A stretch of 24,834 bases of DNA from an uncultured virus (IMG/VR IMGVR_UViG_3300032331_003338) (taxonomy: Duplodnaviria > Heunggongvirae > Uroviricota > Caudoviricetes): IMG/VR virus record IMGVR_UViG_3300032331_003338, one strand, 5' to 3'. A program made the position numbers and the translations under genes. Below, in pieces: positions 685 to 13,676 of the stretch; the stretch's first letter is position 1, and each line of letters starts with the position of its first letter. A model generated the notes under the pieces. The model searched no databases and had not been told where the DNA came from. It saw nothing but the letters and a program-made list of their open reading frames with translations.

Positions 685-694
685 AAATAGGGGC

Positions 695-1565: not shown

Positions 1566-1568
1566 GAT
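1540..1568 (+). promoter_or_regulatory. Sigma70-type promoter
   Basis: GGGGC-TTGACC-17-TAAGAT, overlapping the upstream gene end. Confidence 0.7.
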
Positions 1569-1608
1569 TGCTTTGCGGCACTTGCCGTAGGGGAATAAGG
1601 AGGAAGCT

Positions 1609-2120: not shown

Positions 2121-2128
2121 GAGGAACA

Positions 2129-2599: not shown

Positions 2600-2624
2600 C
2601 GCGGACTAACAAGTCTGCGACAAT
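2596..2624 (+). promoter_or_regulatory. Sigma70-type promoter
   Basis: TTGACG-17-GACAAT with extended TG. Confidence 0.6.
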
Positions 2625-2685
2625 GCGTAAAGAGAGTTCATCGTTGGCGCAGCCGACGGCTCTCAGCAACAGGAGGAAACGAACA

Positions 2686-3192
2686 ATGAGGAAGCGTAAG
2701 GGAAACTCTATTGCCGAGTCTGGCTTGTGGAACGCCTACGAGTACAAGATGGAGCGCACAATGATTAGCGACAAGGCCGCGTCTATTCGCGTGGAATCGC
2801 CGCGTGAGTTGGCAAGCGTGTTCCGTGAGTTTGCCGATAAGGAGATGAGCGAATCGCTGTTCGTCGTATCGGTTGGCGGCAGGAACAATGTGCTTGGTAT
2901 CCACCGAATCTATCAGGGGACGGCAGTAGGGACTTCGGTTTCTATCGGAGAGATTCTCCGCTCCGCACTTCTGATGGGGGCGGTAGGATTCGCACTCGTT
3001 CACAATCACCCTTCTGGCGATGAGGTAGCGTCAGACGAGGATGTGAACCTTACGAGAGATGTTGAGTTGGGAGCCAAGTTGATGGACTTGATTTTTCTTG
3101 ACCACATTGTCGTAGGTGGTGGGGGTTCGTTTACTTCCATCAGGTCGCAGAAGCCAGACCTGTTCTTGCGGCCAGCCGACAAGAGCAACTAA
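2686..3192 (+). CDS. radC: RadC-like JAB/MPN domain protein
   Basis: E...HNHPSGD..S..D...DH JAB motif; start at ATG 2686 after AGGAGG. Confidence 0.9.
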   Translation: MRKRKGNSIAESGLWNAYEYKMERTMISDKAASIRVESPRELASVFREFADKEMSESLFVVSVGGRNNVLGIHRIYQGTAVGTSVSIGEILRSALLMGAVGFALVHNHPSGDEVASDEDVNLTRDVELGAKLMDLIFLDHIVVGGGGSFTSIRSQKPDLFLRPADKSN

Positions 3193-3202
3193 ATACGTCG
3201 GG

Positions 3203-3272
3203 TCGGTGGTTCCTCCCACCTTCTCGGCCTAACGCCCCTTCGGTGGTTCCTCCCACCGGAGGGGTTCTCTTT
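3203..3272 (+). terminator. Tandem hairpins with an 18-bp direct repeat, ending in an intrinsic terminator
   Basis: TCGGTGGTTCCTCCCACC at 3203-3220 and 3240-3257; second copy lies within a CCCCT...AGGGG stem followed by TTCTCTTT. Confidence 0.7.
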
Positions 3273-3384
3273 GCCCGCAGCTCTATTCGACCTCCTGGCC
3301 ACGCCCGCATAGTTTAGATTCCTTATCATTACCTTATCCAAATATTACTTGACTAGGTGATACCCCATACCCCATAATGGACTG

Positions 3385-3610
3385 ACTACCGGAGCCGCGG
3401 CTCAATGGTAGAGGTGGAGCGTTAGACGAGAGAGCAGTTGCCCCGACCATATTGGGGGAAAGAGATTCATGCGAGGCGACAGCGCCGCTGCTGAAATGGC
3501 GGGGTTGTAGGAACGGAATACCGGACATCAGGGAAGGCCTCCCTAGTGGCTAGGACTCTCGACCGATCAGGAGGTCTGGTGAGCGACGGCTCGTCAGGCC
3601 TCCTTCTCTA
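3385..3610 (+). ncRNA. Putative structured non-coding RNA 1
   Basis: No credible ORF; possible promoter TTGACT-18-CATAAT (3349-3378); stems with G-U pairs; multi-hairpin junction at 3531-3605. Confidence 0.4.
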
Positions 3611-3637
3611 TGTCGTAGGAGCTTTGAGAATAGGGGC

Positions 3638-3666
3638 TTGACGGCCGGCAAATGTTCGTTTAGGAT
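3638..3666 (+). promoter_or_regulatory. Sigma70-type promoter upstream of the non-coding segment
   Basis: GGGGC-TTGACG-17-TAGGAT. Confidence 0.75.
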
Positions 3667-3671
3667 CATCA

Positions 3672-3910
3672 AACGAGCCGCTCTGGTGCCGCTGTGAAAG
3701 TAGCGGGCTTATGGGGCTGCGGCTGGTTGGTAGTTGTAGACAAACTACCCGCGACGATAAGGACGAGCTGTGGGGGTGCCTAACCGACACCTACGCCGTT
3801 CGCAAGAGGCAGCCGGAAGGTGAAGCCTCTCCTCGCAAGAGGATAAGCGTCAAAGGCAGCGAAATGCTTGGGGGGTCGGCCAGATGTGGTGTCTGATCGG
3901 CTCCCCTTCA
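3672..3910 (+). ncRNA. Putative structured non-coding RNA 2
   Basis: Own promoter, no RBS-led ORF; hairpins CCGCTG-TGAAAG-TAGCGG, GGTAGTT..AACTACC, TCCTC-GCAA-GAGGA; long 3' stem at 3870-3906. Confidence 0.55.
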
Positions 3911-3913
3911 CAC

Positions 3914-3942
3914 TTGACGGCGCGAATCGTTAGGTGTAGTTT
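3914..3942 (+). promoter_or_regulatory. Sigma70-type promoter
   Basis: TTGACG-17-TAGTTT. Confidence 0.7.
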
Positions 3943-3983
3943 AGTGATGTCGGGAGTTCCCGATGGATAGCACAGGAGGAAGT

Positions 3984-4265
3984 ATGGACGAGCAGACGAC
4001 TATCGAACACATTGAGGAGTGTGAGTCCAGCTTGGGCGCACCACACGGCACGCCGAAGCTCCGCACCTACAAGTATGGCTGGAACGGCTACGAGAACGCC
4101 TATGAGGGTTCCGAGTGGCTGTGCGATGATTGCTATGAAGCGATGAGTCAGGTTGATGGAGCCGATGAGGTCGTCGCGTATGTATGCTTTGAGTGCGGTA
4201 AAGTTGCGGTCGGTGAGGCGGCCGCTTTGTGCCGCGAGTGCGAGAAGGAGGTGTTTGGTGAGTAG
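3984..4265 (+). CDS. Zn-finger (multiple CxxC) protein
   Basis: GCACAGGAGGAAGT-ATG; CDDC, CFEC, CREC. Confidence 0.7.
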   Translation: MDEQTTIEHIEECESSLGAPHGTPKLRTYKYGWNGYENAYEGSEWLCDDCYEAMSQVDGADEVVAYVCFECGKVAVGEAAALCRECEKEVFGE

Positions 4266-4608
4266 GCAAGACGCGGCTTTCTTTACGCACACGCACGACG
4301 CAGAGGTTCTGTGGAGGCCAGAGGGCAGCAACCCAAAGGAAGTGCGCGTGTACCGAAATGGTGAAATGAGAATCAACTACACGGAGCCGTCAGGTGAAAA
4401 CGTAGTCCTTCGGTATACAGATGACCTAGACGGAAAGGGACTTGATACCGACGAGAAGCTGCGCGCAGCAGAGGAGTCTGGCCTGATCGAGTGGATAAAT
4501 AACGCTTGGTTTGAGGTTGCGTGGGTTGATAATGAGGACGGAGAGATTGTTGATGGAATAGATGAGGCCATTGAGTATGCCAAGAAACTATTGGAGGAGG
4601 AAGTATGA
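4258..4608 (+). CDS. Hypothetical acidic protein
   Basis: AAGGAGG-6-GTG at 4258, in frame with ORF 4153..4608. Confidence 0.7.
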   Translation: MSRQDAAFFTHTHDAEVLWRPEGSNPKEVRVYRNGEMRINYTEPSGENVVLRYTDDLDGKGLDTDEKLRAAEESGLIEWINNAWFEVAWVDNEDGEIVDGIDEAIEYAKKLLEEEV

Positions 4609-4757
4609 GTAGGAACGCTTGTATCTGGTGCGGAACTGAGGTTGAGGACGACCGGCAGTACGAGTTTGCTATCTGTGGTGAGTGCTATGCTGACGCGGCA
4701 CACGCTTCACAGGCCGAAGTAAGGATTGAGGAGATGAGAGATAATGGCGACATTTAG
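4605..4757 (+). CDS. 50-aa zinc-finger micro-protein (not in ORF track)
   Basis: GGAGGAAGT-ATG; CIWC...CGEC. Confidence 0.7.
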   Translation: MSRNACIWCGTEVEDDRQYEFAICGECYADAAHASQAEVRIEEMRDNGDI

Positions 4758-4971
4758 TTTCTACGAGTTCACGGAGGAGGAGGTCATCGGCTTTGTTCGC
4801 GCCCTAGTGCGTGGCGGGGACTTTGCTATTGGGCTTCCGTCAGACGAGGCCATAGATCGCGCACTCGACATCATTGACGAGCCGCATAAATGGTCGCGTG
4901 AGATGACGGCGTGGCGAGCTTCTGGTTCGCCAGAGGCCTATATCTACCAGCCAGAGGCCTTGACGGACTAG
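4744..4971 (+). CDS. Hypothetical protein
   Basis: Overlaps the previous gene; GAGGAG upstream. Confidence 0.6.
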   Translation: MATFSFYEFTEEEVIGFVRALVRGGDFAIGLPSDEAIDRALDIIDEPHKWSREMTAWRASGSPEAYIYQPEALTD

Positions 4972-4988
4972 TCTGGTGGCTGTAAGGT
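4960..4988 (+). promoter_or_regulatory. Sigma70-type promoter
   Basis: TTGACG-17-TAAGGT. Confidence 0.65.
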
Positions 4989-5031
4989 GATGGTATCGGG
5001 GCTTCCCGATAAACGTAGAGAGGAGTACGAG

Positions 5032-5274
5032 ATGGACGAAGGGTTTGAGCAGTCGGTCGAGATTCCGTTCAGCAAGTTCTATGTTGCGGTTGCGCGCAGG
5101 GTTGAGTCCAAGTGCGGCATGACTCCTGACGACCTACCGGACATTGACTTCCGAGCGTTCTATTTGGAGCGCGGCACGATTGAGGAGTATCGAGCAGCAA
5201 TCGCGGAGTGCGTGTACGCCGTGCTGGAAGGCGCAGGATACCCCTTCTCTGATGAGGACGAGTACTACTCATGA
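5032..5274 (+). CDS. Hypothetical protein
   Basis: GAGGAG-ATG at 5032, in frame with ORF 4987..5274. Confidence 0.7.
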   Translation: MDEGFEQSVEIPFSKFYVAVARRVESKCGMTPDDLPDIDFRAFYLERGTIEEYRAAIAECVYAVLEGAGYPFSDEDEYYS

Positions 5275-5483
5275 CTTCGATTTCTGGAAAGAGTGGCCGC
5301 TCGTGGAGTCAGTTCTCAGCTCGTACAAAGGCCGAGTACCTTCGGGAGTCGGCAGCGTGGGAGCGTGAGCAGCGGCGTAGGCTATACATCAAGGGTGCGG
5401 TAGTAGCGGTTGCGTTTGCGGCCTTCGTACTCTTGGTGCTAGGATTCGGCGGCACGACCGATTTCGTGCCAGATATGAGATAG
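5271..5483 (+). CDS. Small single-pass membrane protein
   Basis: ATGA coupling; hydrophobic GAVVAVAFAAFVLLVLGF. Confidence 0.65.
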   Translation: MTSISGKSGRSWSQFSARTKAEYLRESAAWEREQRRRLYIKGAVVAVAFAAFVLLVLGFGGTTDFVPDMR

Positions 5484-5491
5484 GAGGAACT

Positions 5492-5758
5492 ATGCGAGGC
5501 GAGGAACTATACGAACTTAGGGACGCTGGCTATCTGAAAGTCGAGCTGCGCGAAGGCCTGTGGGTCGCCCTGATGAGTGAGGACGGCGTGAACTTCGGCG
5601 GTACGCTCTGGAAGCAGTCGGCCTCTGATGGGTTCCACTATTCCGAGGGCTGTACTGCCGGCTATCCTGTGTTTGGATTCGGTATGACTTCGGAGGAGGC
5701 CGCTCGACAGGTGGCCTTGTATATCGCTATGGAGTCGGGCGCTGAGGCCTTGCTCTAA
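5492..5758 (+). CDS. Hypothetical protein
   Basis: AGGAGGAACT-ATG. Confidence 0.7.
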   Translation: MRGEELYELRDAGYLKVELREGLWVALMSEDGVNFGGTLWKQSASDGFHYSEGCTAGYPVFGFGMTSEEAARQVALYIAMESGAEALL

Positions 5759-5761
5759 CGC

Positions 5762-5790
5762 TTGACGCGCAGAACGTAGTCGGCTATTGT
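5762..5790 (+). promoter_or_regulatory. Sigma70-type promoter
   Basis: TTGACG-17-TATTGT. Confidence 0.7.
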
Positions 5791-5831
5791 TCATGAGTCG
5801 GGACTTCCCGATCTAGCACAAGGAGGAGCAC

Positions 5832-6197
5832 ATGAGCGGGTACGCAGTAAAGGTTGAGTCGGGCAAGGTGTCCGTAGTAGATCGCGGCGAAGGCCTCTCT
5901 GGCCTATACGCTGCGACCGATTGCCAGATGATCGAGATAGCAGCCACCGGAAAGATCGCTGGCGTTCCTGTTGCGATTGTCTGCGACGAGGAAGGCCTCC
6001 TGAAGTCCGAGCCAAAAATGAACCTGACCGCGTGTGATGTTGTCGCAGTAGCAACTGAGAGCGCACCGATGTATCTATTCGGCGGCGGCCTTGCTGGTAC
6101 GGTGTCGATCGTTCACGACGACCAGCTCCGCGGGTTCACCGCTGACGAGCGCGACAAGATCGTCGGCATACTCCAAGATGGCGGCTTCCCGATGTAG
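5832..6197 (+). CDS. DUF3846-like protein
   Basis: LY...DC..IE....IVCDEEGLLK...N..A pattern. Confidence 0.6.
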   Translation: MSGYAVKVESGKVSVVDRGEGLSGLYAATDCQMIEIAATGKIAGVPVAIVCDEEGLLKSEPKMNLTACDVVAVATESAPMYLFGGGLAGTVSIVHDDQLRGFTADERDKIVGILQDGGFPM

Positions 6198-6218
6198 TCG
6201 GGGCTGCTCAATGTCTAC

Positions 6219-6256
6219 GAGGCCGTCGGTGTCTGTGCCACCGGCGGTCTCACTTT
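6219..6256 (+). terminator. Terminator-like hairpin with TCTGTGC loop
   Basis: GAGGCCGTCGGTG-TCTGTGC-CACCGGCGGTCTC. Confidence 0.65.
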
Positions 6257-6378
6257 ATCCGCTCATCATTAGGACATCATTATCAGGCCGCTATTATCAG
6301 ACCCCCTACCATAGCCCCCCCCCATACCCCACACCCCATCGCTACCGGTAGGCCGTGCGCTAGGTCGAAACTAGGGGC

Positions 6379-6406
6379 TTGACTTCCGACGCAGACCTGC
6401 TACCTT
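6379..6406 (+). promoter_or_regulatory. Sigma70-type promoter
   Basis: GGGGC-TTGACT-16-TACCTT with extended TG. Confidence 0.65.
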
Positions 6407-6453
6407 CTATGAGTTGGCACTTGCTAACAGCACAGGCACAGGAGGAGGAACAG

Positions 6454-6885
6454 ATGAAAGACCTGACGACACCAGCGCAGAAGTGGCTGCGGGAGTTTCT
6501 CGGAACACAGGCCGTAGGGACTTGCCCTACTTGCCGACAGGCTCTACCAGAAGGCTCGTGCTTTCGGGCGTTCGTTCGCTACGGCGACGGCGATGACCTT
6601 GTGGCCTACACCAAGACTCGCGGTGAGGCTCTGGCCGTCCTGATCGGTTGGCGCGATGACGAGTGTGGCGATTCGTTCTGGGCTGATCGAGCGGAGACCT
6701 GGGAGAGCCTGAGCGTCGCGCAAGCGGTTGCTTTGGAGCACGCACCGGCCGCTCTGGTCGTTGCTGCCAATGCTGACGATAAGGCCTACGATGAACTCTT
6801 GGCCGCAGTCGAGTATGACTTCATCGGGACGCCAATGGTCGGCGCTGTCTGGGTAGACGATCTTACGGCCTACTCGGGCAAGTAG
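6454..6885 (+). CDS. Hypothetical protein with CPTC motif
   Basis: GCACAGGAGGAGG RBS, ATG 6454. Confidence 0.7.
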   Translation: MKDLTTPAQKWLREFLGTQAVGTCPTCRQALPEGSCFRAFVRYGDGDDLVAYTKTRGEALAVLIGWRDDECGDSFWADRAETWESLSVAQAVALEHAPAALVVAANADDKAYDELLAAVEYDFIGTPMVGAVWVDDLTAYSGK

Positions 6886-6902
6886 TCGTCTCCGTTTTCT
6901 AC

Positions 6903-6943
6903 GAGGCCACTCTCCATCTGTGCGGAGGGTGGCCTCTCTCTTT
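6903..6943 (+). terminator. Intrinsic terminator with ATCTGTGC loop
   Basis: GAGGCCACTCTCC-ATCTGTGC-GGAGGGTGGCCTC-TCTCTTT. Confidence 0.75.
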
Positions 6944-7070
6944 GCCTCCAGCTTCACGCGGTCATCATTAGGCCGTCATTATGCTCCCGCTATTACGAGA
7001 CCCCATACCCCATTTCCCCAGACCCCCAGACCCCAGCGTTGCGCGCTCCGCAACACTCGCCACAGGGGGC

Positions 7071-7099
7071 TTGACTTCTGGGCTTGGTGGCTCTACCTT
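7071..7099 (+). promoter_or_regulatory. Sigma70-type promoter
   Basis: GGGGC-TTGACT-17-TACCTT. Confidence 0.7.
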
Positions 7100-7149
7100 G
7101 TAAGAGTCAAGCGGCTTTGCTCCGCAGGACGAGCACAGAGGAGGACACG

Positions 7150-7611
7150 ATGAAGGGTATGACCTACGAGAAGGCACGCGAGGCGTGCCAGAAGGCCGGC
7201 GGTATGTTCGCCGTGTGGACGGCGTGGTCTGCGCCAACCACTCCAAAGCAGTTCGATACTCGCAAGAAGGACGCTGCTAGCCGTGAGGCCACGCACCGCG
7301 CCATTGGTCGAGTCCAGACTTCGGGCGAGCAGATCGTAGACGACAAGGGGCGCGTATCGTTCCTGTTCCGCGCTGCTGGCCAGATCAACCGCGACATACA
7401 CCCAGAGGGCGTGTACCTGACGAAGGCTGGCGATCCGATGGTGGACATCGTGATCTCCGCTCCTACGGAGTACGGCTACACGACGGCCTGTAAGTATTCG
7501 GGAGTGGTCGGCTCTGCCTGTGAGCACCGCCGTCCGTTCCACGCGCACCGCACCATCAACCTCACACGGCTCGTGTCGTGGCTCATCGCAGGAGAGGAGC
7601 AGGTCGGGTAG
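7150..7611 (+). CDS. Hypothetical protein, paralog A of 11980..12432
   Basis: GCACAGAGGAGG RBS; shares long motif blocks with paralog B. Confidence 0.85.
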   Translation: MKGMTYEKAREACQKAGGMFAVWTAWSAPTTPKQFDTRKKDAASREATHRAIGRVQTSGEQIVDDKGRVSFLFRAAGQINRDIHPEGVYLTKAGDPMVDIVISAPTEYGYTTACKYSGVVGSACEHRRPFHAHRTINLTRLVSWLIAGEEQVG

Positions 7612-7631
7612 GTTCGGCCTCTCCACTTCGA

Positions 7632-7672
7632 GCGCACCTCGTCGGGCTTCGGCTCGGCGGGGTGTGTTTTTT
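7632..7672 (+). terminator. Intrinsic terminator (cUUCGg loop)
   Basis: GC-rich stem, CTTCGG loop, T6 tract. Confidence 0.85.
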
Positions 7673-7899
7673 GTAAAAGCTTTACGCGGTCATCATTAGC
7701 GCGCTATTAGATCGACCCCCTACCCCGACCCCCTGCCCCCACTCCCCCCTGCTATTGGTTCGGCTTCCTGTTCTGTCGAGCTGCTATTCATCAGGTCATC
7801 ATTAGGCGGCTATTACTTGACCCCCCATACAATCCCCACTCCCCCCTTACCCCATTGTTGGCTCGGTCGAGTGCTACCGCTCTGGCTCGTCCTGAGGGC

Positions 7900-7928
7900 T
7901 TGACGCATTGACCACTGCCGGTAATACT
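7900..7928 (+). promoter_or_regulatory. Sigma70-type promoter
   Basis: GGGC-TTGACG-17-AATACT. Confidence 0.55.
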
Positions 7929-7976
7929 TGACTGGTCGGGTGGCTATGATCCGCTCGGCTAGCACAGGAGGTCTCT

Positions 7977-8366
7977 ATGTTTAGGTTCTATGTATTCGTG
8001 AGGCGCGTGGTCGATGGGATCGAGGACGCCGTAGGCGACACGCTGACCGCTGCCGGCCCTGACTGGGCGTACGACAAGACTGAGGCTGTCGCTACCGACG
8101 GCGGCTATCCTGAGCCGATGGCTCACTCGGTCGCTCGTGGTATGACCCAGGCTGCGTATGCGCTGCTCGGTGGTCTGGACTTCTTTGTCCAAGAGTACGA
8201 CGCGGAGGATGTCGTGGCAGGGTCGCTGACCCCAGAGGATAAGGAGATGGCGGCGGCTATCGCTATGGGCCTCCTCCCTTCTGACGGCTCGGTAGCCTTC
8301 GTCTCTGGTCTGGTCAATCGAGCAGACGCCAAGCCCTTCTGGTTCGTGGTCGCCGTTCACGACTAG
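7977..8366 (+). CDS. Hypothetical protein
   Basis: GCACAGGAGG RBS; followed by a terminator. Confidence 0.75.
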   Translation: MFRFYVFVRRVVDGIEDAVGDTLTAAGPDWAYDKTEAVATDGGYPEPMAHSVARGMTQAAYALLGGLDFFVQEYDAEDVVAGSLTPEDKEMAAAIAMGLLPSDGSVAFVSGLVNRADAKPFWFVVAVHD

Positions 8367-8388
8367 CCGTACCGGTTGCGGTCATCAG

Positions 8389-8425
8389 AGCCGCCCTCAC
8401 CCTTCGGGGTGGGGGTGGTTTTTTT
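8389..8425 (+). terminator. Intrinsic terminator (cUUCGg loop)
   Basis: GCCGCCCTCACC-CTTCGG-GGTGGGGGTGGT then T tract. Confidence 0.85.
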
Positions 8426-8537
8426 CTTGGGCTATTATCAGGTGGCTATTACGACACCCCTACGACCCCATACCCCACTCCCCCTTACCCCTGCTGCTGT
8501 GGCTCGGCTGTTCCAGCGTCCAGCTCGACTGCTGCTA

Positions 8538-8567
8538 TTGACTTGACCGCGCCCGGCCGTATAGACT
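8538..8567 (+). promoter_or_regulatory. Sigma70-type promoter
   Basis: TTGACT-18-TAGACT. Confidence 0.65.
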
Positions 8568-8618
8568 CATGGAAGTCGAGGGAGTAGGCACAGACCCCTC
8601 TCGGCACAGGAGGTCAAG

Positions 8619-8933
8619 ATGACCGAGCAACAGAAGGCGAGCCTCTGGCTCGTTGAGGTGATTTGGGAGGGCGAGAATCGCCGCTCTTGGTACAACAACC
8701 AGACCGACGCTGACGCGGCGGTGATTGCGCTGGCTTCGGAGTTGGCGGCGTACAATGCCGACACCGCCGAGGACGCATGCGAGTTTCTGCTGGACGACGA
8801 CCGCTCGGCGTGGGTTGATTGCCAAGAGGTCAGGACTTCTGGGGTTTGCCCTCAGTGCGACGCGATGGCTGGGTGGTCTGGCGACTACTGCGAGCCGTGC
8901 GGCTACCAGTTCGGGAATCAACTGAACGACTAA
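8619..8933 (+). CDS. Hypothetical protein with C-terminal zinc ribbon
   Basis: GCACAGGAGG RBS; CPQC...CEPCG. Confidence 0.75.
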   Translation: MTEQQKASLWLVEVIWEGENRRSWYNNQTDADAAVIALASELAAYNADTAEDACEFLLDDDRSAWVDCQEVRTSGVCPQCDAMAGWSGDYCEPCGYQFGNQLND

Positions 8934-8954
8934 CGCGGCCGGGCGAAGGCAACA

Positions 8955-8985
8955 GGAAGCCGTCCCCTTCGGGGGGCGGTTTTTT
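8955..8985 (+). terminator. Intrinsic terminator (cUUCGg loop)
   Basis: GCCGTCCC-CTTCGG-GGGGCGGT then T tract. Confidence 0.85.
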
Positions 8986-9224
8986 GTTAGTCCTATTAGG
9001 TGGAATCATTACCCCTTGACCCCATTACCCCGCACCCCCCTTCACCCCATCATTTCGGTCGGGTTCCGCTACGGCCGGTCGGAGTCAATAGTCGCAGCTC
9101 ATCATTAGCAGTCATCATCATCAGTCATTATCATCAGGCTATTAGACAACCCCTCACCCCAGATTTGGATTTCCCCTTACCCCATCTGGTCGTTGCGTCT
9201 GGTGCGCGATCTGCTGGGTGGGGC

Positions 9225-9253
9225 TTGACGTTGCCCGCACTTCGAACTAGTCT
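9225..9253 (+). promoter_or_regulatory. Sigma70-type promoter
   Basis: GGGGC-TTGACG-17-TAGTCT. Confidence 0.75.
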
Positions 9254-9300
9254 GGTGAGGTCGCAGGTTGGCACAGACCCGAAGCGACACAGGAGGTCAA

Positions 9301-9795
9301 ATGTTCTCAGAAACGAACCTAGAACGGCTCGTTGAGGTACGGGCAGCGATCAAGGCGACGATGGACTCCCTCACCGAGAAGGAGTTCGCCACAGCAGCAG
9401 AGGGCAACACAGACGCCGGGGGCTCTGGTCATCTTGTCGCCGTCCCTGCTGCGTTCTGGAACGACCACACCAGCCGAGACCTTGACGCGGTGTCGGTCGA
9501 GGTGCGGTCATCAAGCGCGGAGTGGGGACTCTATGATGACGGCTCCTATGTCGTCCTGACGATGACTGACGACTCGCTGGCTGAGTTGATGTCTGACTCG
9601 GCGCACTACTCCTCGTCGTTTGATGAGGAGGACTACGGCTCACTCATGGAGTCGGCACGCCGTACCTTCCTCGCGCTCTTGATCCAGTCGGAGGCGGCGC
9701 GTAGCCTGTTGGACTCGCGCACTTCCTACGACAACCTGCGCTGGGCGCTGGGGTTGGAGCGAACGGGTTCCGCCATCATCACGGGTGCGGCATGA
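9301..9795 (+). CDS. Hypothetical protein
   Basis: ACACAGGAGG RBS, ATG 9301. Confidence 0.75.
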   Translation: MFSETNLERLVEVRAAIKATMDSLTEKEFATAAEGNTDAGGSGHLVAVPAAFWNDHTSRDLDAVSVEVRSSSAEWGLYDDGSYVVLTMTDDSLAELMSDSAHYSSSFDEEDYGSLMESARRTFLALLIQSEAARSLLDSRTSYDNLRWALGLERTGSAIITGAA

Positions 9796-10025
9796 CTGCC
9801 GCTGACCGCGCTTCGATGTGCGCCGATTGCGAGCAGGTGCTAGGCGACTCGGCATGGTACGCCGACAACAACGGCGGACTCGGGCTGCTGATGTATTGCG
9901 ACGGCTGCGAGGAGCGAAGGGCTGAACGCTATGGTTGCGCTCTCATCATCGCGGAGGGTTGCGGTTGCGTTCCGAGTGGCGCTGACTGCGCCTGTGGTTG
10001 CGGAGGCTCTGGCTTGCTTCGTTGA
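9792..10025 (+). CDS. Cys-rich small protein
   Basis: ATGA coupling; CADC, CDGC, CGC..CACGC. Confidence 0.65.
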   Translation: MTAADRASMCADCEQVLGDSAWYADNNGGLGLLMYCDGCEERRAERYGCALIIAEGCGCVPSGADCACGCGGSGLLR

Positions 10026-10044
10026 CCGCACTTCGACCTAAGGC

Positions 10045-10080
10045 TCGCCCTCACTCTTTCGGGAGTGGGGGCGATTCTTT
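10045..10080 (+). terminator. Intrinsic terminator
   Basis: TCGCCCTCACTC-TTTCGG-GAGTGGGGGCGA-TTCTTT. Confidence 0.8.
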
Positions 10081-10414
10081 ACCCCGGGGTTTAGGTAGGG
10101 CCATCATCAGGCAACGCCTACCCCGACCCCCTACCCCATTCGTCAGGCTTGTTTATCAGGTCGTTCATCAGGGGTGTGCTGATACCCCCTCACCCCAGTT
10201 CGTCGCTCTCCGTCGTTCCTACGGGGTCGTTTTTCTGGCGCGCAGCTGCTAACCCCGGGGTTCACGCTCACTCAGGAATGATCGAGCCACAGTCATCAGT
10301 CGTCATTCATCAGTCATCATTCATGACCTACTCCATACCCCTATCCCCATTTCCCCTTACCCCGTGCGCTCGGACTGCTAGGTCGATGTACGGGCAGCAG
10401 CTCGCAACAGCACC

Positions 10415-10443
10415 TTGACTTCTGGTGCGGCCTACTTTACTCT
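10415..10443 (+). promoter_or_regulatory. Sigma70-type promoter
   Basis: TTGACT-17-TACTCT. Confidence 0.7.
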
Positions 10444-10490
10444 CTAAGAGTCGGTGGCTGGCACAGACCCGATCCGACATGGAGGTACAG

Positions 10491-10571
10491 ATGGAAATGG
10501 TAAAGGACTCACTAGCGATGGCGACGTTCCTATTCGGGATGCTGCTGCTCCTCATCTGGGGTGGCTTCTAA
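10491..10571 (+). CDS. 26-aa hydrophobic micro-protein (not in ORF track)
   Basis: GGAGG-5-ATG; MEMVKDSLAMATFLFGMLLLLIWGGF; TAATG overlap with next gene. Confidence 0.6.
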   Translation: MEMVKDSLAMATFLFGMLLLLIWGGF

Positions 10572-10774
10572 TGTACGGCCGCTACGAGTGCAGCAACCAG
10601 AGAACCATCAAGGACGAAGCCGGCTTCTCGGTCTATTCTGGCCAGTGCATCAACGAAACAGAGAGGGTCTATGCGTACTACGAGTACGACGGATCTGATG
10701 GCGTGAAGCCACTCTGTGATCCTTGTGCGCTAGAACTGATGGCTGAGGGCGAGCGACTCGTTCCTGCTAACTAG
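10571..10774 (+). CDS. Small Cys-containing hypothetical protein
   Basis: ATG in TAATG overlap, in frame with ORF 10454..10774; CDPC. Confidence 0.65.
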   Translation: MYGRYECSNQRTIKDEAGFSVYSGQCINETERVYAYYEYDGSDGVKPLCDPCALELMAEGERLVPAN

Positions 10775-10802
10775 CCCACTCCTGCCGCAGCTGCGGCGCT
10801 AC

Positions 10803-10843
10803 GACCCCCTCTACCAACTGTGCGGTAGGGGGGGTCTTTCTTT
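10803..10843 (+). terminator. Intrinsic terminator with AACTGTGC loop
   Basis: GACCCCCTCTACC-AACTGTGC-GGTAGGGGGGGTC-TTTCTTT. Confidence 0.8.
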
Positions 10844-10984
10844 GTCGGCCTCATTATTGTTAGGTCAGTCATTACTCATTAGGTGATCCCCTATACCCCT
10901 CGTCCCCTTACCCCGACTGCTAGGGCTAGTGCTGATGGGGGCTGTCTAGCGGCGAGCTTTCGCGTTGCGCCTGGTGCGTAGTGC

Positions 10985-11013
10985 TTGCGCTTTCCTGCTG
11001 ATGTGTTTAGACT
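10985..11013 (+). promoter_or_regulatory. Sigma70-type promoter
   Basis: TTGCGC-17-TAGACT; leader hairpin CTATCAGCG..CGCTGATAG follows. Confidence 0.6.
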
Positions 11014-11058
11014 CTAACTATCAGCGGCAATGCTTCGCTGATAGCACAGGAGGGAACG

Positions 11059-11574
11059 ATGAACGGAACGAGCGAAACCGGCGTACGGGCAGCAGTCGCA
11101 CGAGCCGAGGCGTTGGCTCAGTATCCAGAGAACCCAACGGCGGTGATGATCCGACCCGTTGAGAGCCTACACGGGCAGGTGTTCGCAGAGCCGACGAGCA
11201 TTATGCTCTCGGTCTTTCTTGCGCCTCGCGTTGGGATCGTATTGGAGCAGGGCGACCTCTGGCGGCAGCCCGTCAAGGTTGAGAGCCGAGTCGGCAATGG
11301 TGGCACCTTCACCTATACGGCGGTGCTGATCGGTAAGGCGGCACCCCAGAACGAGGCGATCCTCTGGCAGGGTGGCAACGCCCCGATGATGGGGTGGCTA
11401 CCCCTTGATGTAGCCGAGTGGGGCGAGGATCACGCTATCGCGTGGTGGATCGCGTCCTGCTACGACGCTGCTAGTGGGGACGCCTATGCGCTCCACCGTC
11501 AGGCAGTCCGCAACATTACGGCACAGGCGCGTGCCGCCTACGAGACCCAGAACGGAGAACCCGCTCCCTTCTGA
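11059..11574 (+). CDS. Hypothetical protein
   Basis: GCACAGGAGG RBS; terminator downstream. Confidence 0.75.
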   Translation: MNGTSETGVRAAVARAEALAQYPENPTAVMIRPVESLHGQVFAEPTSIMLSVFLAPRVGIVLEQGDLWRQPVKVESRVGNGGTFTYTAVLIGKAAPQNEAILWQGGNAPMMGWLPLDVAEWGEDHAIAWWIASCYDAASGDAYALHRQAVRNITAQARAAYETQNGEPAPF

Positions 11575-11597
11575 TCGTCGCCGGAGTCAGGGCAACG

Positions 11598-11630
11598 GAG
11601 CCGATCCCTTCGGGGGTCGGCTCTTTTGTT
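11598..11630 (+). terminator. Intrinsic terminator (cUUCGg loop)
   Basis: GAGCCGATCC-CTTCGG-GGGTCGGCTC-TTTT. Confidence 0.85.
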
Positions 11631-11979
11631 AGGTCATCATCAGTTCATCATCAGGAGCCAGTCGTTCCCCTTACCCCTTACCCCTAGCCGTTGGTCGCTC
11701 CCATCGAGCCTCGGTCAATGCGCGGCGAGTCCTCCCGATGTGGTCAGCGCCGGAGCGGGGTCAATAGATTCACCTAGTAGCTATCATCGGGCAACCTATT
11801 AGGTCAGTCATCAGTATCAGTTATCAGGCGCACCCCTTACCCCCCCCTTACCCCGCACGCATAGGGCGAGTCCGGCGCAGGGGCAACCCGCACCGCCTAC
11901 CCCTTGCGCTGCCCTGTGTTGTGGTAGTCTTAGGGTGTCGGCAGGAGATACCAGCCGACTAGCACAGAGGAGGCACAGG

Positions 11980-12432
11980 ATGAAGGCAGGGATGACCTTC
12001 GCAGCCGCTAGGGCGGCAGCAGCAAAGAGCGGCGGGATGTTCGTCTCGCTTACTGGGTGGAGCGCGCCGACCTCGGAGAAAGTCCGGGAGAAGCGACGCG
12101 AAGCGGCAGCAGGGCGAGCCGCCGAACACCGCGCCATCGGGCGCGTGAAGGTGGAAGCCGAAGCCGAGAACGGCGTGGTGCTGTTCCGCGTAGCGGGTCA
12201 AGTGAACCGCGACGAACACCCTGAGGGCGTGTACCTCAACAAGAAGGGCGAGCCTTGCGTTGGTATCGTCATCGGAGCGCCGACCGAGTACGGCTACACA
12301 ACCGCGTGCCCATACGCAGGGAAGGAAGGGAGCGCATGCGAAATGCGCCGACCCTTCCACGCGCACCGCACCATCAACCTCACGCGCTTGGTGGCGTGGG
12401 TGATTGCGGGGGAGGAGCAGCCGCTCGGCTGA
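11980..12432 (+). CDS. Hypothetical protein, paralog B of 7150..7611
   Basis: GCACAGAGGAGG RBS; upstream extended -10 TG-G-TAGTCT at 11922-11930. Confidence 0.85.
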   Translation: MKAGMTFAAARAAAAKSGGMFVSLTGWSAPTSEKVREKRREAAAGRAAEHRAIGRVKVEAEAENGVVLFRVAGQVNRDEHPEGVYLNKKGEPCVGIVIGAPTEYGYTTACPYAGKEGSACEMRRPFHAHRTINLTRLVAWVIAGEEQPLG

Positions 12433-12448
12433 ACCGCGCCAGAGTTCT

Positions 12449-12489
12449 GAGGAGCCTCCGCCCTAGTGGCGGGGGCTTCTCTCTTTTCT
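12449..12489 (+). terminator. Intrinsic terminator
   Basis: GAGGAGCCTCCGCC..GGCGGGGGCTTCTC followed by TCTTTT. Confidence 0.75.
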
Positions 12490-12715
12490 GAGCTGGACGA
12501 GTGGCATACCAGAGGTTGCCCACCCATCGATTTTGCTGGCCAGTCATGCCCCCCTGCTATGCCCCAACCCCTCATAATCCCCCGTTGCCCCCACCCCGGT
12601 ATGCGTGCGCTACGTACGCACCAACATTGCACCACTCCGTAGCCTTTCAACCCCCTTCGTCCCAATAAAAAAGCCTAGGCACAAGGCCCAGGCGCTAATT
12701 TTTTTTTACAGAAAA

Positions 12716-13114
12716 TTATCTACAGGCGAGCGAGATCCTTCGGCATGCCCTGCACTCTCTCCGGCCCCGTGGAGTCCGGTAGGTGTTCTCGTCCGTCCAC
12801 TCATGCTTCCTTCTGCAGTGTGTGATACGTCCAGTAGCTGCAAGACCACGGCGGATATTGACCGTGCGCGTCACAGGCTCCAGGTGTATCACATTGACGC
12901 ACTTACGGACCCTACAGAGGTGGTCAATCTCCAGGCCCTTGGGGATAGGCCCGACCTCAAAGGTATACGCCCACCTGTGTGCACGGAATCGCTTCCCTTC
13001 GTGCATGAATCCACCGTATCCGTCTGGGTCAAGAGTACCGGTCCATTCATGGCAGCCCGTGAGGTCATTCACATACACATGTTTTCGGAAACGTATCGCC
13101 GATTCTAAATGCAT
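12716..13114 (-). CDS. HNH endonuclease (HNH_3-like) with C-terminal Zn-binding domain
   Basis: AHRWAY..GPIPKGLEIDHLCRVRKCVN..HLE; THC..KHE..ENTY..RECRAC. Confidence 0.9.
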   Translation of the reverse strand: MHLESAIRFRKHVYVNDLTGCHEWTGTLDPDGYGGFMHEGKRFRAHRWAYTFEVGPIPKGLEIDHLCRVRKCVNVIHLEPVTRTVNIRRGLAATGRITHCRRKHEWTDENTYRTPRGRRECRACRRISLACR

Positions 13115-13229
13115 ATCTACGATGTGTACACGGAATGCACGTTTATCTGGGGCCCGGCCGCGGCGCTAGACCCCCCCAATATGCCCCTAGGAGCCACGGA
13201 GAGCGACGCAATATGGGGGGCTACTGTCA

Positions 13230-13541
13230 TTACGCCCCGATACGTCGAATCATGTCCTCTGCCGTGATAAATCCATTGAAGGATTTTGGCGAGGAGGTTG
13301 CCCCATTGGTGTAGATAACACAGGGGACGCTCTTGATACCGTACTCTTGAACAAGGCGTGGTTGCTCGTCAACGTTGACCTTAATAATATTAATGTTAGG
13401 ACGAATCACCTTGAGCTTTTCCAGCTCTACATTGATGGCGACGCACGGTCGGCACCATGGAGCCCAGAAATCAACAATGGTTGGTCCCTTTGCCATCTCT
13501 TGCGTGAGGGTTGCTGTCGTCATTTCAATTACTTGTGTCAT
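13230..13541 (-). CDS. trxA: Thioredoxin
   Basis: DFWAPWCRPC active site, KVNVDE, IKSVP; start ATG 13541 after AAGGAG. Confidence 0.9.
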   Translation of the reverse strand: MTQVIEMTTATLTQEMAKGPTIVDFWAPWCRPCVAINVELEKLKVIRPNINIIKVNVDEQPRLVQEYGIKSVPCVIYTNGATSSPKSFNGFITAEDMIRRIGA

Positions 13542-13676
13542 GCGGGTCTCCTTAGGGATGGCAAGAGGGGGCTGGATCGCTCCAACCCCCTCAGGATTGA
13601 TTGGTGGTTCCTCAACCCGACAGAGACAAGAATCTTTTAAAAACTGTGACATTTCGGAATGAGGCCGTTTATCCTA

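What the first reader, a model, noticed from the sequence alone, without database searches (positions are those of the whole stretch)
6215..10843. Terminator loops complementary to the 5' leader motif (CTGTGC vs GCACAG)
Seen: three terminator hairpins (6219, 6903, 10803) have different stems but share a preceding CTACGA and a loop containing CTGTGC (6233, 6918, 10818). This is the reverse complement of the GCACAG motif in cassette leaders. The radC unit lacks GCACAG (it has CAGGAGGAA) and instead has TTCCTC loops. Inference: 3'-to-5' or trans loop-leader pairing could silence translation of complete transcripts, as in 5'-3' pairing of hok or aapA type I toxin mRNAs. Alternatively these are inverted DNA sites bracketing a cassette.
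Basis: partly seen in the sequence, partly recalled or inferred. Interest (0 to 1): 0.7.

Follow-up and report, generated by a model that had tools for sequence, protein, structure and literature searches.

The report
Phage terminator loops antisense to leaders
In a freshwater phage's array of small early genes, a few transcription-terminator hairpins carry a conserved loop that is the exact complement of a box next to the ribosome-binding site of the early mRNAs, which suggests built-in RNA-RNA control of early translation.

Summary
Three 13-bp hairpins (6219-6251, 6903-6936, 10803-10836) follow CTAC, begin with GA, and have 7-8-nt loops ending in CTGTGC. They sit in an uncultured phage's early-gene array, where each cassette has a sigma70-like promoter, a 5' hairpin, a GCACAG box touching the SD, a small ORF and a terminator.

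The hairpins form a family found in many related phage contigs: 16 distinct sequences, 204/204 stem cells paired, 7/15 pairs with compensatory changes. A scan that left the loop free found only the 8-mer or short loops, with no intermediates.

GCACAG is the commonest non-SD leader hexamer in this clade only. A sister clade has GAGTG-box leaders and CACTC loops. Anti-SD loops in radC-type 3'UTRs track each genome's own SD flank.

Complementarity therefore looks selected, which favours RNA pairing. A hok/aapA-type cis lock is not supported: pairing is only 6-7 nt, and only 8 of 29 family transcripts with the loop have GCACAG in their own leader, against 21 of 26 with TTCG terminators. Action in trans or on downstream leaders is more likely. 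A DNA-site reading is disfavoured.

No RNA data exist, so the function is inferred. The closest precedents are icaR 3'UTR-SD pairing and sRNA terminator-loop seeds.

The parts
6215..6259 (+). T1: CTAC box, 13-bp hairpin 6219-6251 with loop TCTGTGC (6232-6238), and a weak T-tail. It follows the DUF3846 gene 5832-6197.
   Evidence: MFE -24.7 kcal/mol; conserved in L081/L082; positional homologue in G005 has different inner stem pairs and the same loop core
6899..6946 (+). T2: CTAC box, 13-bp hairpin 6903-6936 with loop ATCTGTGC (6916-6923), and tail TCTCTTTG. It follows the 143-aa gene 6454-6885.
   Evidence: compensatory T-A to C-G change in L082; homologue in G006 with two compensated pairs
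10799..10846 (+). T3: CTAC box, 13-bp hairpin 10803-10836 with an unrelated stem and loop AACTGTGC (10816-10823), and tail TTTCTTTG. It ends the accessory cassette 10491-10774.
   Evidence: the whole cassette 10365-10887 is absent from the two nearest relatives
3945..3986 (+). Leader of gene 3984: 5' hairpin, then TAGCACAGGAGG (GCACAG 3970-3975).
5797..5834 (+). Leader of the DUF3846 gene, which is T1's own transcript. The box is the one-mismatch variant GCACAA (5816-5821).
   Evidence: duplex only -6.4 to -6.9 kcal/mol
6414..6456 (+). Leader of gene 6454: two tandem boxes, GCACAGGCACAGGAGG (6430-6441).
7104..7152 (+). Leader of gene 7150: GAGCACAGAGGAGG (box 7133-7138).
7932..7979 (+). Leader of gene 7977: 12-bp 5' hairpin 7932-7962, followed directly by CACAGGAGG (box 7962-7967).
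8575..8621 (+). Leader of gene 8619: GGCACAGACCC in the apical part of a leader hairpin (8587-8597), plus a second box at 8604-8609 beside the SD.
9260..9303 (+). Leader of gene 9301: GGCACAGACCC presented in a hairpin loop (box 9271-9276). GACACAGGAGG lies beside the SD.
10450..10493 (+). Leader of the T3 cassette: GGCACAGACCC in a hairpin (box 10461-10466).
11018..11061 (+). Leader of gene 11059: 10-bp 5' hairpin, then CACAGGAGGG (box 11044-11049).
11932..11982 (+). Leader of gene 11980: ACTAGCACAGAGGAGGCACAGG (boxes 11962-11967 and 11973-11978).
3199..3273 (+). radC 3'UTR: two hairpins (3199-3226 and terminator 3234-3265). Each presents TTCCTC(C), the complement of radC's SD region.
   Evidence: duplex -10.8, opening 0.5 kcal/mol with radC's own leader
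2672..2688 (+). radC ribosome-binding site: GGAGGAA (2672-2678) and the start codon at 2686.

Best explanation
The three hairpins are intrinsic-terminator-type 3' hairpins of early phage mRNAs. Their enlarged 7-8-nt loops present CUGUGC as an antisense seed.

The seed can form 6-7 base pairs with the GCACAG(R) box. That box lies between the 5' stabiliser hairpin and the SD of most early mRNAs of this phage clade, overlaps the SD by 1-2 nt, and in some leaders is itself presented in a hairpin loop, which would allow loop-loop kissing.

I infer that pairing lowers or coordinates translation, and perhaps stability, of the early cassette mRNAs. It would act mainly in trans, or on the next leader in read-through RNA. 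The actor would be either the full mRNA or a stable 3' hairpin fragment of the few cassettes that carry the loop.

The radC cassette uses the same principle in cis. Its two 3'UTR loops are antisense to its own SD.

Shown: the hairpins, their family, stem covariation with a constant loop, clade-specific complementarity, and favourable duplex energies. Inferred: that the RNAs meet in the cell, the direction of the effect (repression), and trans versus read-through action.
For: (1) The hairpin family is real and the loop is constrained.
- There are 16 distinct CTGTGC-loop hairpins. All 204 of 204 stem cells are paired, 7 of 15 pairs change on both sides, and 0 of 500 shuffles reach the observed values. 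The loop-closing pair is C-G, G-C or A-U.
- A scan defined by outer stem only, with the loop free, found family loops of ATCTGTGC (10 loci, 5 stems), AACTGTGC (1) or short loops: TTCG (4 loci), plus a possible ACG (1). A GTCG variant was also seen in G005. No one-letter variants of the 8-mer appeared.

(2) GCACAG is the commonest non-SD leader hexamer in the window (7/14 leaders), G002 (10/21) and G005 (5/10), and is present in 4/12 in G006.

(3) Clade specificity. ATCTGTGC has a complement of 6 nt or more in 7/14, 11/21, 5/10 and 4/12 leaders of the window, G002, G005 and G006. It has none in 0/36, 0/13, 0/24 and 0/18 leaders of G007, G008, G009 and G011, and those genomes have no CTGTGC-loop terminator.

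(4) Covariation between clades.
- G007 leaders carry AGAGTG (15/36). Its large-loop terminator has TGCACTC, with a complement of 5 nt or more in 19/36 of its own leaders and 0-1 elsewhere. Random 7-mers reach this with P=0.0086.
- G007's relative L385 has a different stem and loop TCACACTC, which keeps CACTC.

(5) Anti-SD loops follow their own SD flank.
- Window: TTCCTCC against GGAGGAA.
- G002: CTCCTCC against GAGGAG.
- G005 group: AGTCCTCC against GGAGGACT. In G005 this octamer is followed by a start codon only once on that strand, at radC itself.
- G007: GTCCTCC against GGAGGAC (9/36 own leaders, 1 or fewer elsewhere).
- L385: TGCACCTCC against GGAGGTGC(A) (9/12 own leaders).
- G008: ATTCTCCA against TGGAGA/GGAGAA (9/13 own leaders).

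(6) Energetics. Loop-leader duplexes are -9.5 to -10.7 kcal/mol for 9 of 10 leaders (T1 and T2 loops), with opening costs of 1.5-4.3 kcal/mol. Only 5 of 500 shuffled loops and 2 of 500 random 8-mers reach the observed mean. The box is unpaired or in apical loops in most predicted leader folds.

(7) Precedents. The terminator loop of the Listeria sRNA LhrC pairs with the lapB SD region (PMC4132741, passages read). A 3'UTR UCCCCUG motif pairs with the SD of icaR mRNA (PMC3868564, abstract read).
Against: - There are no RNA data of any kind, so transcript ends, abundance and pairing are untested.
- Six to seven base pairs is short.
- Within the window's clade both motifs are invariant. Covariation for CTGTGC/GCACAG itself rests on comparison with one sister clade (two genomes, a 5-nt core).
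- Only 3 of about 10 cassettes carry the loop. Orthologous genes in relatives end in TTCG loops on the same stem, so the loop is dispensable at any one position.
- T1's own leader has GCACAA.
- Counter-examples exist. In L369 the radC loop is TTCCTCC with leader GGAGGACT. In G004 the CTCATCC loop has no complement in the preceding RBS, although G006 has 7/7. In G009, TCTCCATC matches only 1/24 of its own leaders. Five other large loops (TTCTTGTT, CATTATGC, CAAGCA, GTGAAA, CGGGCA) match nothing.
- Leader sets came from a regular-expression gene finder and early regions chosen by eye.
- Related contigs are not independent samples.
Confidence: 0.55

Rival explanations
1. The loop is read by a protein or tunes termination or 3'-end stability. 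Candidates are a phage or host RNA-binding factor, an RNase, or RNA polymerase pausing. On this view the complementarity to the leader box is incidental.
For: A constant loop on covarying stems fits a protein-binding site as well as a pairing seed. The loop is swapped for TTCG on the same stem in some relatives, as expected for an optional module. One study of E. coli sRNAs reports terminator loops acting 'likely without base-pairing' (PMC11979758; abstract and section headings seen).
Against: This does not explain why the loop core is the exact reverse complement of the clade's commonest non-SD leader hexamer. It also does not explain why the sister clade's loops complement that clade's different box, or why anti-SD loops follow their own SD flanks. 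No candidate protein was identified, and the small ORFs have no Pfam hits.
Confidence: 0.2
2. A cis 5'-3' lock of each complete transcript, as in hok or aapA type I toxin mRNAs. The loop would pair with the leader of the same mRNA and keep it untranslated until it is processed.
For: T2's and T3's own leaders carry the box. The radC unit does look cis: in G005 the 8-nt complement of its loop, followed by a start codon, occurs only at radC's own RBS on that strand. The T3 cassette begins with a 27-aa hydrophobic ORF (read).
Against: - In 18 sources, only 8 of 29 CTGTGC-terminated transcripts with a detected leader have GCACAG in their own first leader, against 21 of 26 TTCG-terminated ones. For example, the cassette with the 15-bp-stem variant of the hairpin has a GTAGTAGGAAGGAAGG leader.
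- T1's own leader is mismatched.
- Pairing is 6-7 nt, not an extended fbi/tac-like helix.
- T1 and T2 follow a DUF3846 protein and a 143-aa protein.
- No promoter-like site lies on the minus strand in 5800-11000.
Confidence: 0.1
3. Common descent and recombination without function. The hairpin and the leader module spread through the array by PeSL-like shuffling, and the loop has simply not had time to diverge.
For: Modules clearly move. Cassette 10365-10887 is missing in the nearest relatives, flanked by a repeated C-rich block. In G002 the gene upstream of T1 is replaced, and homology resumes at CTACGAGG. Regulatory cassettes that drive shuffling are known in T4-type phages (PMC2839356; abstract and one section read).
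Against: Stems changed at 8 of 15 pairs, and flanks vary, while the six loop-core positions did not change. When the loop does change, it is replaced wholesale by a short loop. Drift also does not predict complementarity to the leader box in two clades.
Confidence: 0.1
4. DNA-level inverted sites (GCACAG/CTGTGC) for a DNA-binding protein or recombinase that brackets cassettes or promoters.
For: On DNA the two motifs are the same site in opposite orientation, and T1/T2/T3 each lie about 200 bp upstream of a box-bearing leader.
Against: - Only 6-7 bp are shared.
- The site always sits at the apex of a hairpin, and the partner always sits beside an SD. Both are RNA-level positions.
- Most cassettes have a box but no loop.
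- No tyrosine recombinase was found in 0 of 4 related records, three of them 94-100% complete, while the control rang in 14 of 14.
- The analogous loops elsewhere complement the SD itself.
Confidence: 0.03

Closest known systems
icaR mRNA 3'UTR-5'UTR pairing in Staphylococcus aureus (PMC3868564; abstract read)
   Same: A short pyrimidine-rich motif in the 3'UTR is complementary to the SD region of an mRNA and blocks initiation. The radC cassette here matches this design in cis, with a 7-8-nt complement to its own RBS.
   Different: Here the motif sits in the loop of the terminator hairpin itself. For CTGTGC the target is a box beside the SD, not the SD. The targets are mostly other mRNAs. The setting is a phage early-gene array. 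RNase III involvement is unknown.
sRNA terminator loops used as seeds: Listeria LhrC-lapB (PMC4132741; passages read) and E. coli SdsR/RseX/ArrS-fepA (PMC11979758; abstract read)
   Same: The loop of an intrinsic terminator takes part in regulating a target mRNA at or near its translation initiation region.
   Different: Those are dedicated sRNAs. Here the loops belong to protein-coding early mRNAs. For fepA the authors consider base-pairing unlikely. No chaperone or RNase dependence can be assessed here.
hok/sok and aapA/IsoA type I toxin mRNAs (recalled, not looked up)
   Same: The idea that the 3' end of an mRNA pairs with its 5' region to keep it untranslated.
   Different: Pairing is only 6-7 nt, no antisense sRNA promoter was seen, and T1 and T2 follow non-toxin-like proteins. 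In relatives, most loop-bearing transcripts also lack the box in their own leader.
PeSL (promoter-early stem-loop) regulatory cassettes of T4-type phages (PMC2839356; abstract and section 13 read)
   Same: Dense intergenic modules of a sigma70-like early promoter, a terminator stem-loop and an SD flank small ORFans. Recombination between the modules makes indels and replacements between close relatives, as seen here.
   Different: No loop-leader complementarity is described in the abstract and section 13 that I read. This phage is not T4-type: its portal is about 24% identical to SPO1-like Bacillus phages. Its modules are longer and carry extra TCATCA and C-rich repeats.
Antisense kissing-loop control in plasmids, such as CopA/CopT and RNA I/RNA II (recalled)
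   Same: A 6-7-nt loop-loop contact as the first step. Three window leaders and their homologues present GGCACAGA in a hairpin loop.
   Different: There is no overlapping antisense transcription, and whether the contact extends beyond the loop is unclear.

Membership tests
Intrinsic (Rho-independent) terminator | G+C-rich hairpin shortly after a stop codon | tested here: met
   Stems of 13 pairs, 9 of them G-C, lie 21-28 nt after the stops at 6197, 6885 and 10774. MFE is -24.7 to -27.7 kcal/mol.
Intrinsic (Rho-independent) terminator | U-rich tract directly after the stem | tested here: inconclusive
   T2 and T3 pass the scan's rule of 5 T in 8. T1 is not listed; its tail is ACTTTATCC. All three tails are interrupted by C and are weaker than those of the TTCG terminators.
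Intrinsic (Rho-independent) terminator | Transcript 3' ends map there | not testable with these tools
   No RNA holder was listed. The runs that were laid are contigs only.
hok/sok or aapA-type type I toxin mRNA | Small hydrophobic toxin ORF | tested here: inconclusive
   T1 and T2 follow 121-aa (DUF3846) and 143-aa proteins. The T3 operon begins with a 27-aa hydrophobic ORF (10491-10573, read), but nothing else ties it to a toxin.
hok/sok or aapA-type type I toxin mRNA | Extended 5'-3' complementarity within the same mRNA | tested here: not met
   Only 6-7 nt pair. The own leader carries the box in 8 of 29 loop-bearing transcripts of the family.
hok/sok or aapA-type type I toxin mRNA | Antisense sRNA gene opposite the leader | tested here: not met
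   The only minus-strand promoter-like site in 1-14000 is at 13130-13102. This is a consensus scan only.
icaR-type 3'UTR anti-SD pairing | 3'UTR motif complementary to the SD region of the same mRNA | tested here: met
   Met for the radC unit: TTCCTCC against GGAGGAA in the window, and AGTCCTCC against GGAGGACT in the G005 group, unique to radC's RBS in G005. For CTGTGC the complement abuts the SD and is mostly on other mRNAs.
icaR-type 3'UTR anti-SD pairing | Pairing blocks initiation and creates an RNase III substrate | not testable with these tools
   This needs toeprinting or RNase assays.
sRNA-like terminator-loop seed | Terminator loop complementary to target translation initiation regions, specific to its own genome | tested here: met
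   Own-versus-other-genome matrices and duplex energies against shuffled loops.
sRNA-like terminator-loop seed | A separate small RNA, or a stable 3' fragment, accumulates | not testable with these tools
   No RNA data. Rfam gave 0 matches in the window.
PeSL-like mobile regulatory cassette | Early promoter plus stem-loop plus SD modules flank ORFans, and recombination between them makes indels | tested here: met
   Architecture. A 523-bp cassette indel between repeated C-rich blocks. Gene replacement with homology resuming at the hairpin. This is an analogy only, because the phage is not T4-type.
Integron attC or site-specific recombination sites | A recombinase gene, and a site at every cassette boundary | tested here: not met
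   PF00589 was found in 0 of 4 related records while the control rang in 14 of 14. Only 3 of about 10 cassettes have the hairpin type.
T7 RNA polymerase class II pause/termination signal (ATCTGTT; recalled) | The phage encodes a single-subunit RNA polymerase | tested here: inconclusive
   PF00940 was found in 0 of 4 related records, but the control genomes were silent too. The cassette promoters are sigma70-like, which argues for host polymerase.

The most novel reading that the evidence does not exclude
This phage group runs a distributed riboregulatory code built into its own mRNA ends. The 3' terminator hairpins of the first few early transcripts would act as trans-acting antisense loops on a private address box (GCACAG here, GAGTG in a sister clade) or on the SD flank of the remaining early mRNAs. 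That would time or cap early translation without any dedicated sRNA gene or repressor protein. Loop and box would co-evolve, so each clade keeps its own code while cassettes are shuffled freely.
Probability: 0.35. Interest if true: 0.8.

Novelty: new variant of a known kind. Interest (0 to 1): 0.65.

Why it matters
If the pairing is real, intrinsic terminators of ordinary phage mRNAs would double as regulators of other mRNAs' translation. This would add to sRNA terminator loops and the single icaR-type case, and it would occur in a virus, where early-gene shut-off is usually ascribed to proteins.

It would explain why some terminators keep costly 8-nt loops. It would also give a sequence rule, loop equals antisense of the genome's own initiation-region box, that can be searched for in any phage genome.

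The idea can be tested directly with reporters and compensatory mutations, because both partners are only 6-8 nt long. If the pairing is not real, the finding still documents a widespread, structurally well-supported hairpin family with a constrained loop in freshwater phages.

Tried and rejected
- **Whole genome of the window:** not held. I worked with the nearest records instead.
- **Megablast of 5800-11100 against named phages:** no match.
- **Earlier notes of this scan:** none.
- **80 loci around portal relatives:** these cover mostly structural genes. No CTGTGC loop was found outside the window among 359 hairpins.
- **Relatives of the 67-aa protein of the T3 cassette:** only two weak 22-residue hits, of no use.
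- **Pattern 'promoter plus CACAGGAGG':** 45 stretches, but only two contigs (the near-identical record and G002) had multiple hits. The rest are single chance hits.
- **RNA evidence:** no RNA holder was listed. Four runs were laid (two labelled RNA-Seq, one flagged 'probably DNA' by the tool and one a guess, plus two DNA). All are short contigs and show no ends or joints of use.
- **Rfam at gathering thresholds:** 0 matches. **tRNA/tmRNA:** 0.
- **T7 class II signal idea** (loop shares ATCTGT with the recalled ATCTGTT): no single-subunit polymerase in 0 of 4 records, though the control was silent. The promoters are sigma70-like, so I set this aside.
- **Integron-like or recombinase reading:** rejected.
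- **16S 3'-end mimicry as the reason for the anti-SD loops:** rejected. The loop flanks follow each phage's own SD flank (GGAGGAA, GGAGGACT, GGAGGAC, GGAGGTGC) rather than one fixed rRNA sequence.
- **CTAC box pairing with GTAG/TAG in leaders:** considered. The order of the elements does not fit a colinear duplex, so it is left unexplained.
- **Extension of pairing into the 5' arm** (the CUCC of some stems against GGAG): present only in stems whose inner 5' arm is C/T-rich (the ACTCTCC and GTCGCTCCC types), so it was not used.
- **Literature:** two full-text searches found no paper describing phage mRNA terminator loops complementary to leaders. The library lacks most subscription journals.

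Full report
**What the window is**

The window belongs to an uncultured tailed phage. Pfam finds:
- a portal protein (19444-21600, minus strand),
- a prohead protease (22377-24194),
- a C5 cytosine methylase,
- a PD-(D/E)XK nuclease,
- an IstB-like ATPase,
- a RadC-like JAB protein (2596-3192).

The portal is about 24% identical to portals of SPO1-like Bacillus phages. More than 140 IMG/VR contigs encode 53-100% identical portals. Runs that hold the DNA are labelled freshwater, lake-water and wastewater metagenomes.

The nearest record (handle G003) is about 98% identical to the window, not identical. No named phage matches at the DNA level.

From about 3200 to 12500 the + strand carries an array of small genes. 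Each cassette has:
- a GGGGCTTGAC-type -35 region with a TAnnnT -10 hexamer 16-18 nt later,
- a leader that starts with a hairpin,
- a strong SD,
- a short ORF, mostly without a Pfam match,
- a hairpin terminator,
- then TCATCA/CTATTA and C-rich repeats before the next promoter.

**The observation**

- T1: stem 6219-6251, loop TCTGTGC.
- T2: stem 6903-6936, loop ATCTGTGC.
- T3: stem 10803-10836, loop AACTGTGC.

Each has 13 uninterrupted pairs, is preceded by CTAC, begins with GA and ends with TC, and has a C-interrupted T-tail. They are the only + strand hairpins in the window with 13 or more pairs and a 7-8-nt loop. The other cassette terminators have TTCG tetraloops, at 7630, 8387, 8951, 10045 and 11597.

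The hexamer count alone is at chance level: 22 on both strands against 15.4 +/- 3.5, with 4 of 100 shuffles reaching it. The signal is positional. 3 of the 6 CTGTGC copies are loop ends. 12 of the 16 + strand GCACAG copies lie within 40 nt upstream of cassette start codons.

The radC unit has the leader CAACAGGAGGAAACG and two 3'UTR hairpins that present TTCCTC(C).

**A hairpin family with a constrained loop**

The closest relatives keep T1 and T2. T1's G-U pair becomes G-C. In G002, T2 shows a compensated T-A to C-G change.

More distant genomes (portal 75-78% identical) carry the same kind of hairpin after homologous genes, with several compensated stem changes and the same loop.

A pattern scan of IMG/VR found 59 stretches. 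Many contigs hold two or three copies.

I collected 16 distinct hairpin sequences, plus one G006 variant that I left out of the alignment because it would not align. On the alignment:
- 204 of 204 stem cells form standard pairs.
- 7 of 15 pairs show changes on both sides.
- None of 500 shuffles reaches any of the five measures.
- Slid controls drop to 41-66% paired.
- The loop-closing pair is C-G, G-C or A-U.

Those rows were chosen by the motif, so loop constancy there is by construction. The fair test is a scan defined by the outer stem only (GAGGCCGTC...GGCGGCCTC). Among the full hairpins, family members had:
- ATCTGTGC in 10 loci on 5 stems,
- AACTGTGC in 1 locus,
- a short loop otherwise: TTCG on the same stem in 4 loci, plus a possible ACG in 1 locus.

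A GTCG version on the same outer stem occurs in G005.

No one-letter variant of the 8-mer was seen. The loop is therefore either kept intact or replaced wholesale, which points to selection on its sequence.

**The leader box**

In the window, G002, G005 and G006, the stretch between the 5' hairpin and the SD reads (T)AGCACAG(G/A). The SD itself differs between genomes (GGAGGAGG, GGAAGGAAGG, AGAGGAG).

GCACAG is the commonest non-SD hexamer in the leaders of the window (7/14), G002 (10/21) and G005 (5/10), and occurs in 4/12 in G006.

A second leader type places GGCACAGACCC in the apical part of a hairpin whose outer stem varies.

More distant relatives (G007, G008, G009, G011) have no GCACAG leaders and no CTGTGC-loop terminators.

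**Is the complementarity selected?**

For each large loop I counted the leaders that hold a perfect complement, in its own genome and in the others.

- ATCTGTGC has a complement of 6 nt or more in 7/14, 11/21, 5/10 and 4/12 leaders of its own clade. It has 0 in G007, G008, G009 and G011. It also has 0/14 in G004, whose contig ends at the start of the array.
- G007 leaders carry AGAGTG (15/36). Its one large-loop terminator has TGCACTC, with a complement of 5 nt or more in 19/36 of its own leaders against 0-1 elsewhere. Random 7-mers reach this with P=0.0086.
- G007's only fetched relative is L385, at 66% protein identity. It has a different stem and loop TCACACTC, which keeps CACTC, and its leaders carry (G)AGTG(T).

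The 3'UTR hairpins with anti-SD loops follow their own SD flank:
- Window: TTCCTCC against GGAGGAA.
- G002: CTCCTCC against GAGGAG, an A-U to G-C switch at one pair.
- G005 group: AGTCCTCC against GGAGGACT, 8 of 8. In the complete G005 genome this octamer is followed by a start codon only once on that strand, at radC's own RBS.
- G007: GTCCTCC against GGAGGAC (9/36 own leaders, 1 or fewer elsewhere).
- L385: TGCACCTCC against GGAGGTGC(A) (9/12 own leaders).
- G008: ATTCTCCA against TGGAGA/GGAGAA (9/13 own leaders).

A leader variant, GGAGGGTT, keeps pairing with AGTCCTCC through two G-U pairs.

Some results run the other way:
- L369 has loop TTCCTCC with leader GGAGGACT.
- G004's CTCATCC loop has no complement in the preceding RBS, although G006 has 7 of 7.
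- G009's TCTCCATC matches 1/24 of its own leaders.
- Five other large loops match nothing.

The leader sets came from a simple pattern-based gene finder and from early regions I delimited by eye. Many contigs are close relatives, so the counts are not independent.

**Energetics**

The T1 and T2 loops form 6-7-bp duplexes of -9.5 to -10.7 kcal/mol with 9 of 10 window leaders. T3's loop gives slightly weaker values, -8.9 to -9.6. Leader opening costs are 1.5-4.3 kcal/mol.

The exception is T1's own leader, which reads GCACAA.

Only 5 of 500 shuffled loops and 2 of 500 random 8-mers reach the observed mean.

The U before CUGUGC can pair with either the G or the A that follows the box.

**Cis or trans?**

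In 18 sources (the window, three genomes and 14 family contigs), I compared each terminator with its own first leader:

| Terminator type | Own first leader has GCACAG | First downstream leader has GCACAG |
|---|---|---|
| CTGTGC loop | 8 of 29 | 23 of 33 |
| TTCG loop | 21 of 26 | 15 of 18 |

Reading one contig in full shows why. The first cassette has the 15-bp-stem variant of the hairpin and a GTAGTAGGAAGGAAGG leader. The DUF3846 cassette has a near-miss box (ACACAG). Later cassettes have the box and TTCG terminators.

So the loop-bearing and box-bearing transcripts are largely different sets. This speaks against a hok-type self-lock. It favours action in trans, or on the next leader in read-through RNA. 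The radC unit, by contrast, looks cis.

**Rivals**

- *Protein-binding or termination-tuning loop.* This fits the constant loop, but it does not explain complementarity in two clades or the SD-flank tracking.
- *DNA-level inverted sites.* These are unlikely. Only 6-7 bp are shared. The motifs always sit at RNA-level positions, a hairpin apex and the side of an SD. No tyrosine recombinase was found in 0 of 4 related records, while the control rang in 14 of 14.
- *Neutral hitch-hiking with shuffled modules.* This is real as a process. Cassette 10365-10887 is missing in G003 and G002 between repeated C-rich blocks. A gene replacement in G002 has homology resuming at CTACGAGG. It does not explain an unchanged loop on changed stems.
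- *T7-type class II signal.* The resemblance to the recalled ATCTGTT was set aside. No single-subunit polymerase was found, though the control was silent, and the promoters are host-type.

**Comparison with what is known**

- The nearest mechanism in print is icaR, where a 3'UTR UCCCCUG motif pairs with the SD of the same mRNA (PMC3868564, abstract).
- sRNA terminator loops also take part in target recognition: LhrC-lapB (PMC4132741, passages), and for fepA 'likely without base-pairing' (PMC11979758, abstract and headings).
- The cassette architecture and its shuffling resemble the PeSL regulatory cassettes of T4-type phages (PMC2839356, abstract and section 13). That paper's abstract and section 13 mention no loop-leader relation.
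- Two full-text searches found no description of phage mRNA terminator loops antisense to leaders. The library lacks most subscription journals.

**Verdict**

The hairpins are a well-supported structural family with a constrained loop. Their complementarity to a clade-specific leader box is very unlikely to be chance.

RNA pairing that modulates early translation is the best explanation (about 0.55), probably in trans. The hok/aapA analogy and the DNA-site alternative are not supported. No expression or pairing data exist, so function remains inferred.

I rate it a new variant of a known kind, with interest 0.65.

Noticed in passing
window 6255-6345, 6950-7050, 7690-7850, 8430-8500, 8990-9180, 10090-10360, 10840-10910, 11625-11860: Every gap between a terminator and the next promoter holds TCATCA(TT)AGG/CTATTA repeats followed by C-rich CCCCWTACCCC blocks. 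These are G-runs on the other strand and could form G-quadruplexes. The blocks recur in related genomes.
   Followed up: no
window 10365-10887: The whole T3 cassette (leader, 27-aa ORF, 67-aa Cys-rich ORF, terminator) is absent from the 98%-identical record G003 and from G002. The flanks share a repeated C-rich block (CCCCTTACCCCG), which suggests gain or loss by recombination between intergenic repeats.
   Followed up: partly
window 3300-3960: An ORF-poor stretch after radC has two promoter-like sites (3349-3378 and 3638-3666) and a 16-bp hairpin at 3569-3604. It may be a non-coding RNA. Rfam and tRNA searches found nothing.
   Followed up: partly
window 10491-10573 and 1214-1299; L347 15533-15603; L385 about 3606-3676: Very small hydrophobic ORFs (23-28 aa, some starting MIEVFWG/MIEIFWG). 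In G007 and L385 this ORF is the last one before the double 3'UTR hairpin with anti-SD and CACTC loops.
   Followed up: no
window 12449-12481 and 11958-11962: The terminator of gene 11980-12432 has a 5-nt loop, CTAGT. Its complement ACTAG lies in that gene's own leader, just 5' of GCACAG. At 5 nt this could be chance.
   Followed up: no
window 7150-7611 and 11980-12432: Two paralogous genes in the array. Their 3' parts hit the same places in related loci. In relatives the orthologue ends in a CTGTGC-loop terminator with a 15-bp stem; here the two copies end in TTCG and CTAGT loops.
   Followed up: partly
3'UTRs in several clades (window 6215, 6899, 10799; G007 about 15620; radC 3'UTRs of L363-L378; G006 about 80908): A CTAC(G) box sits at the 5' foot of otherwise unrelated 3'UTR hairpins in several clades. 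In some relatives it directly follows the radC stop codon (TAACTACGA). Its role is unexplained.
   Followed up: partly
window 19444-21600 (minus strand): The portal protein carries a C-terminal extension with weak haloacid-dehalogenase-like matches (residues about 480-590).
   Followed up: no
window 12640-12720: The + strand early array ends here, facing a minus-strand terminator (12693-12673) and an A/T-rich stretch. This is the convergent boundary with the minus-strand gene block.
   Followed up: no
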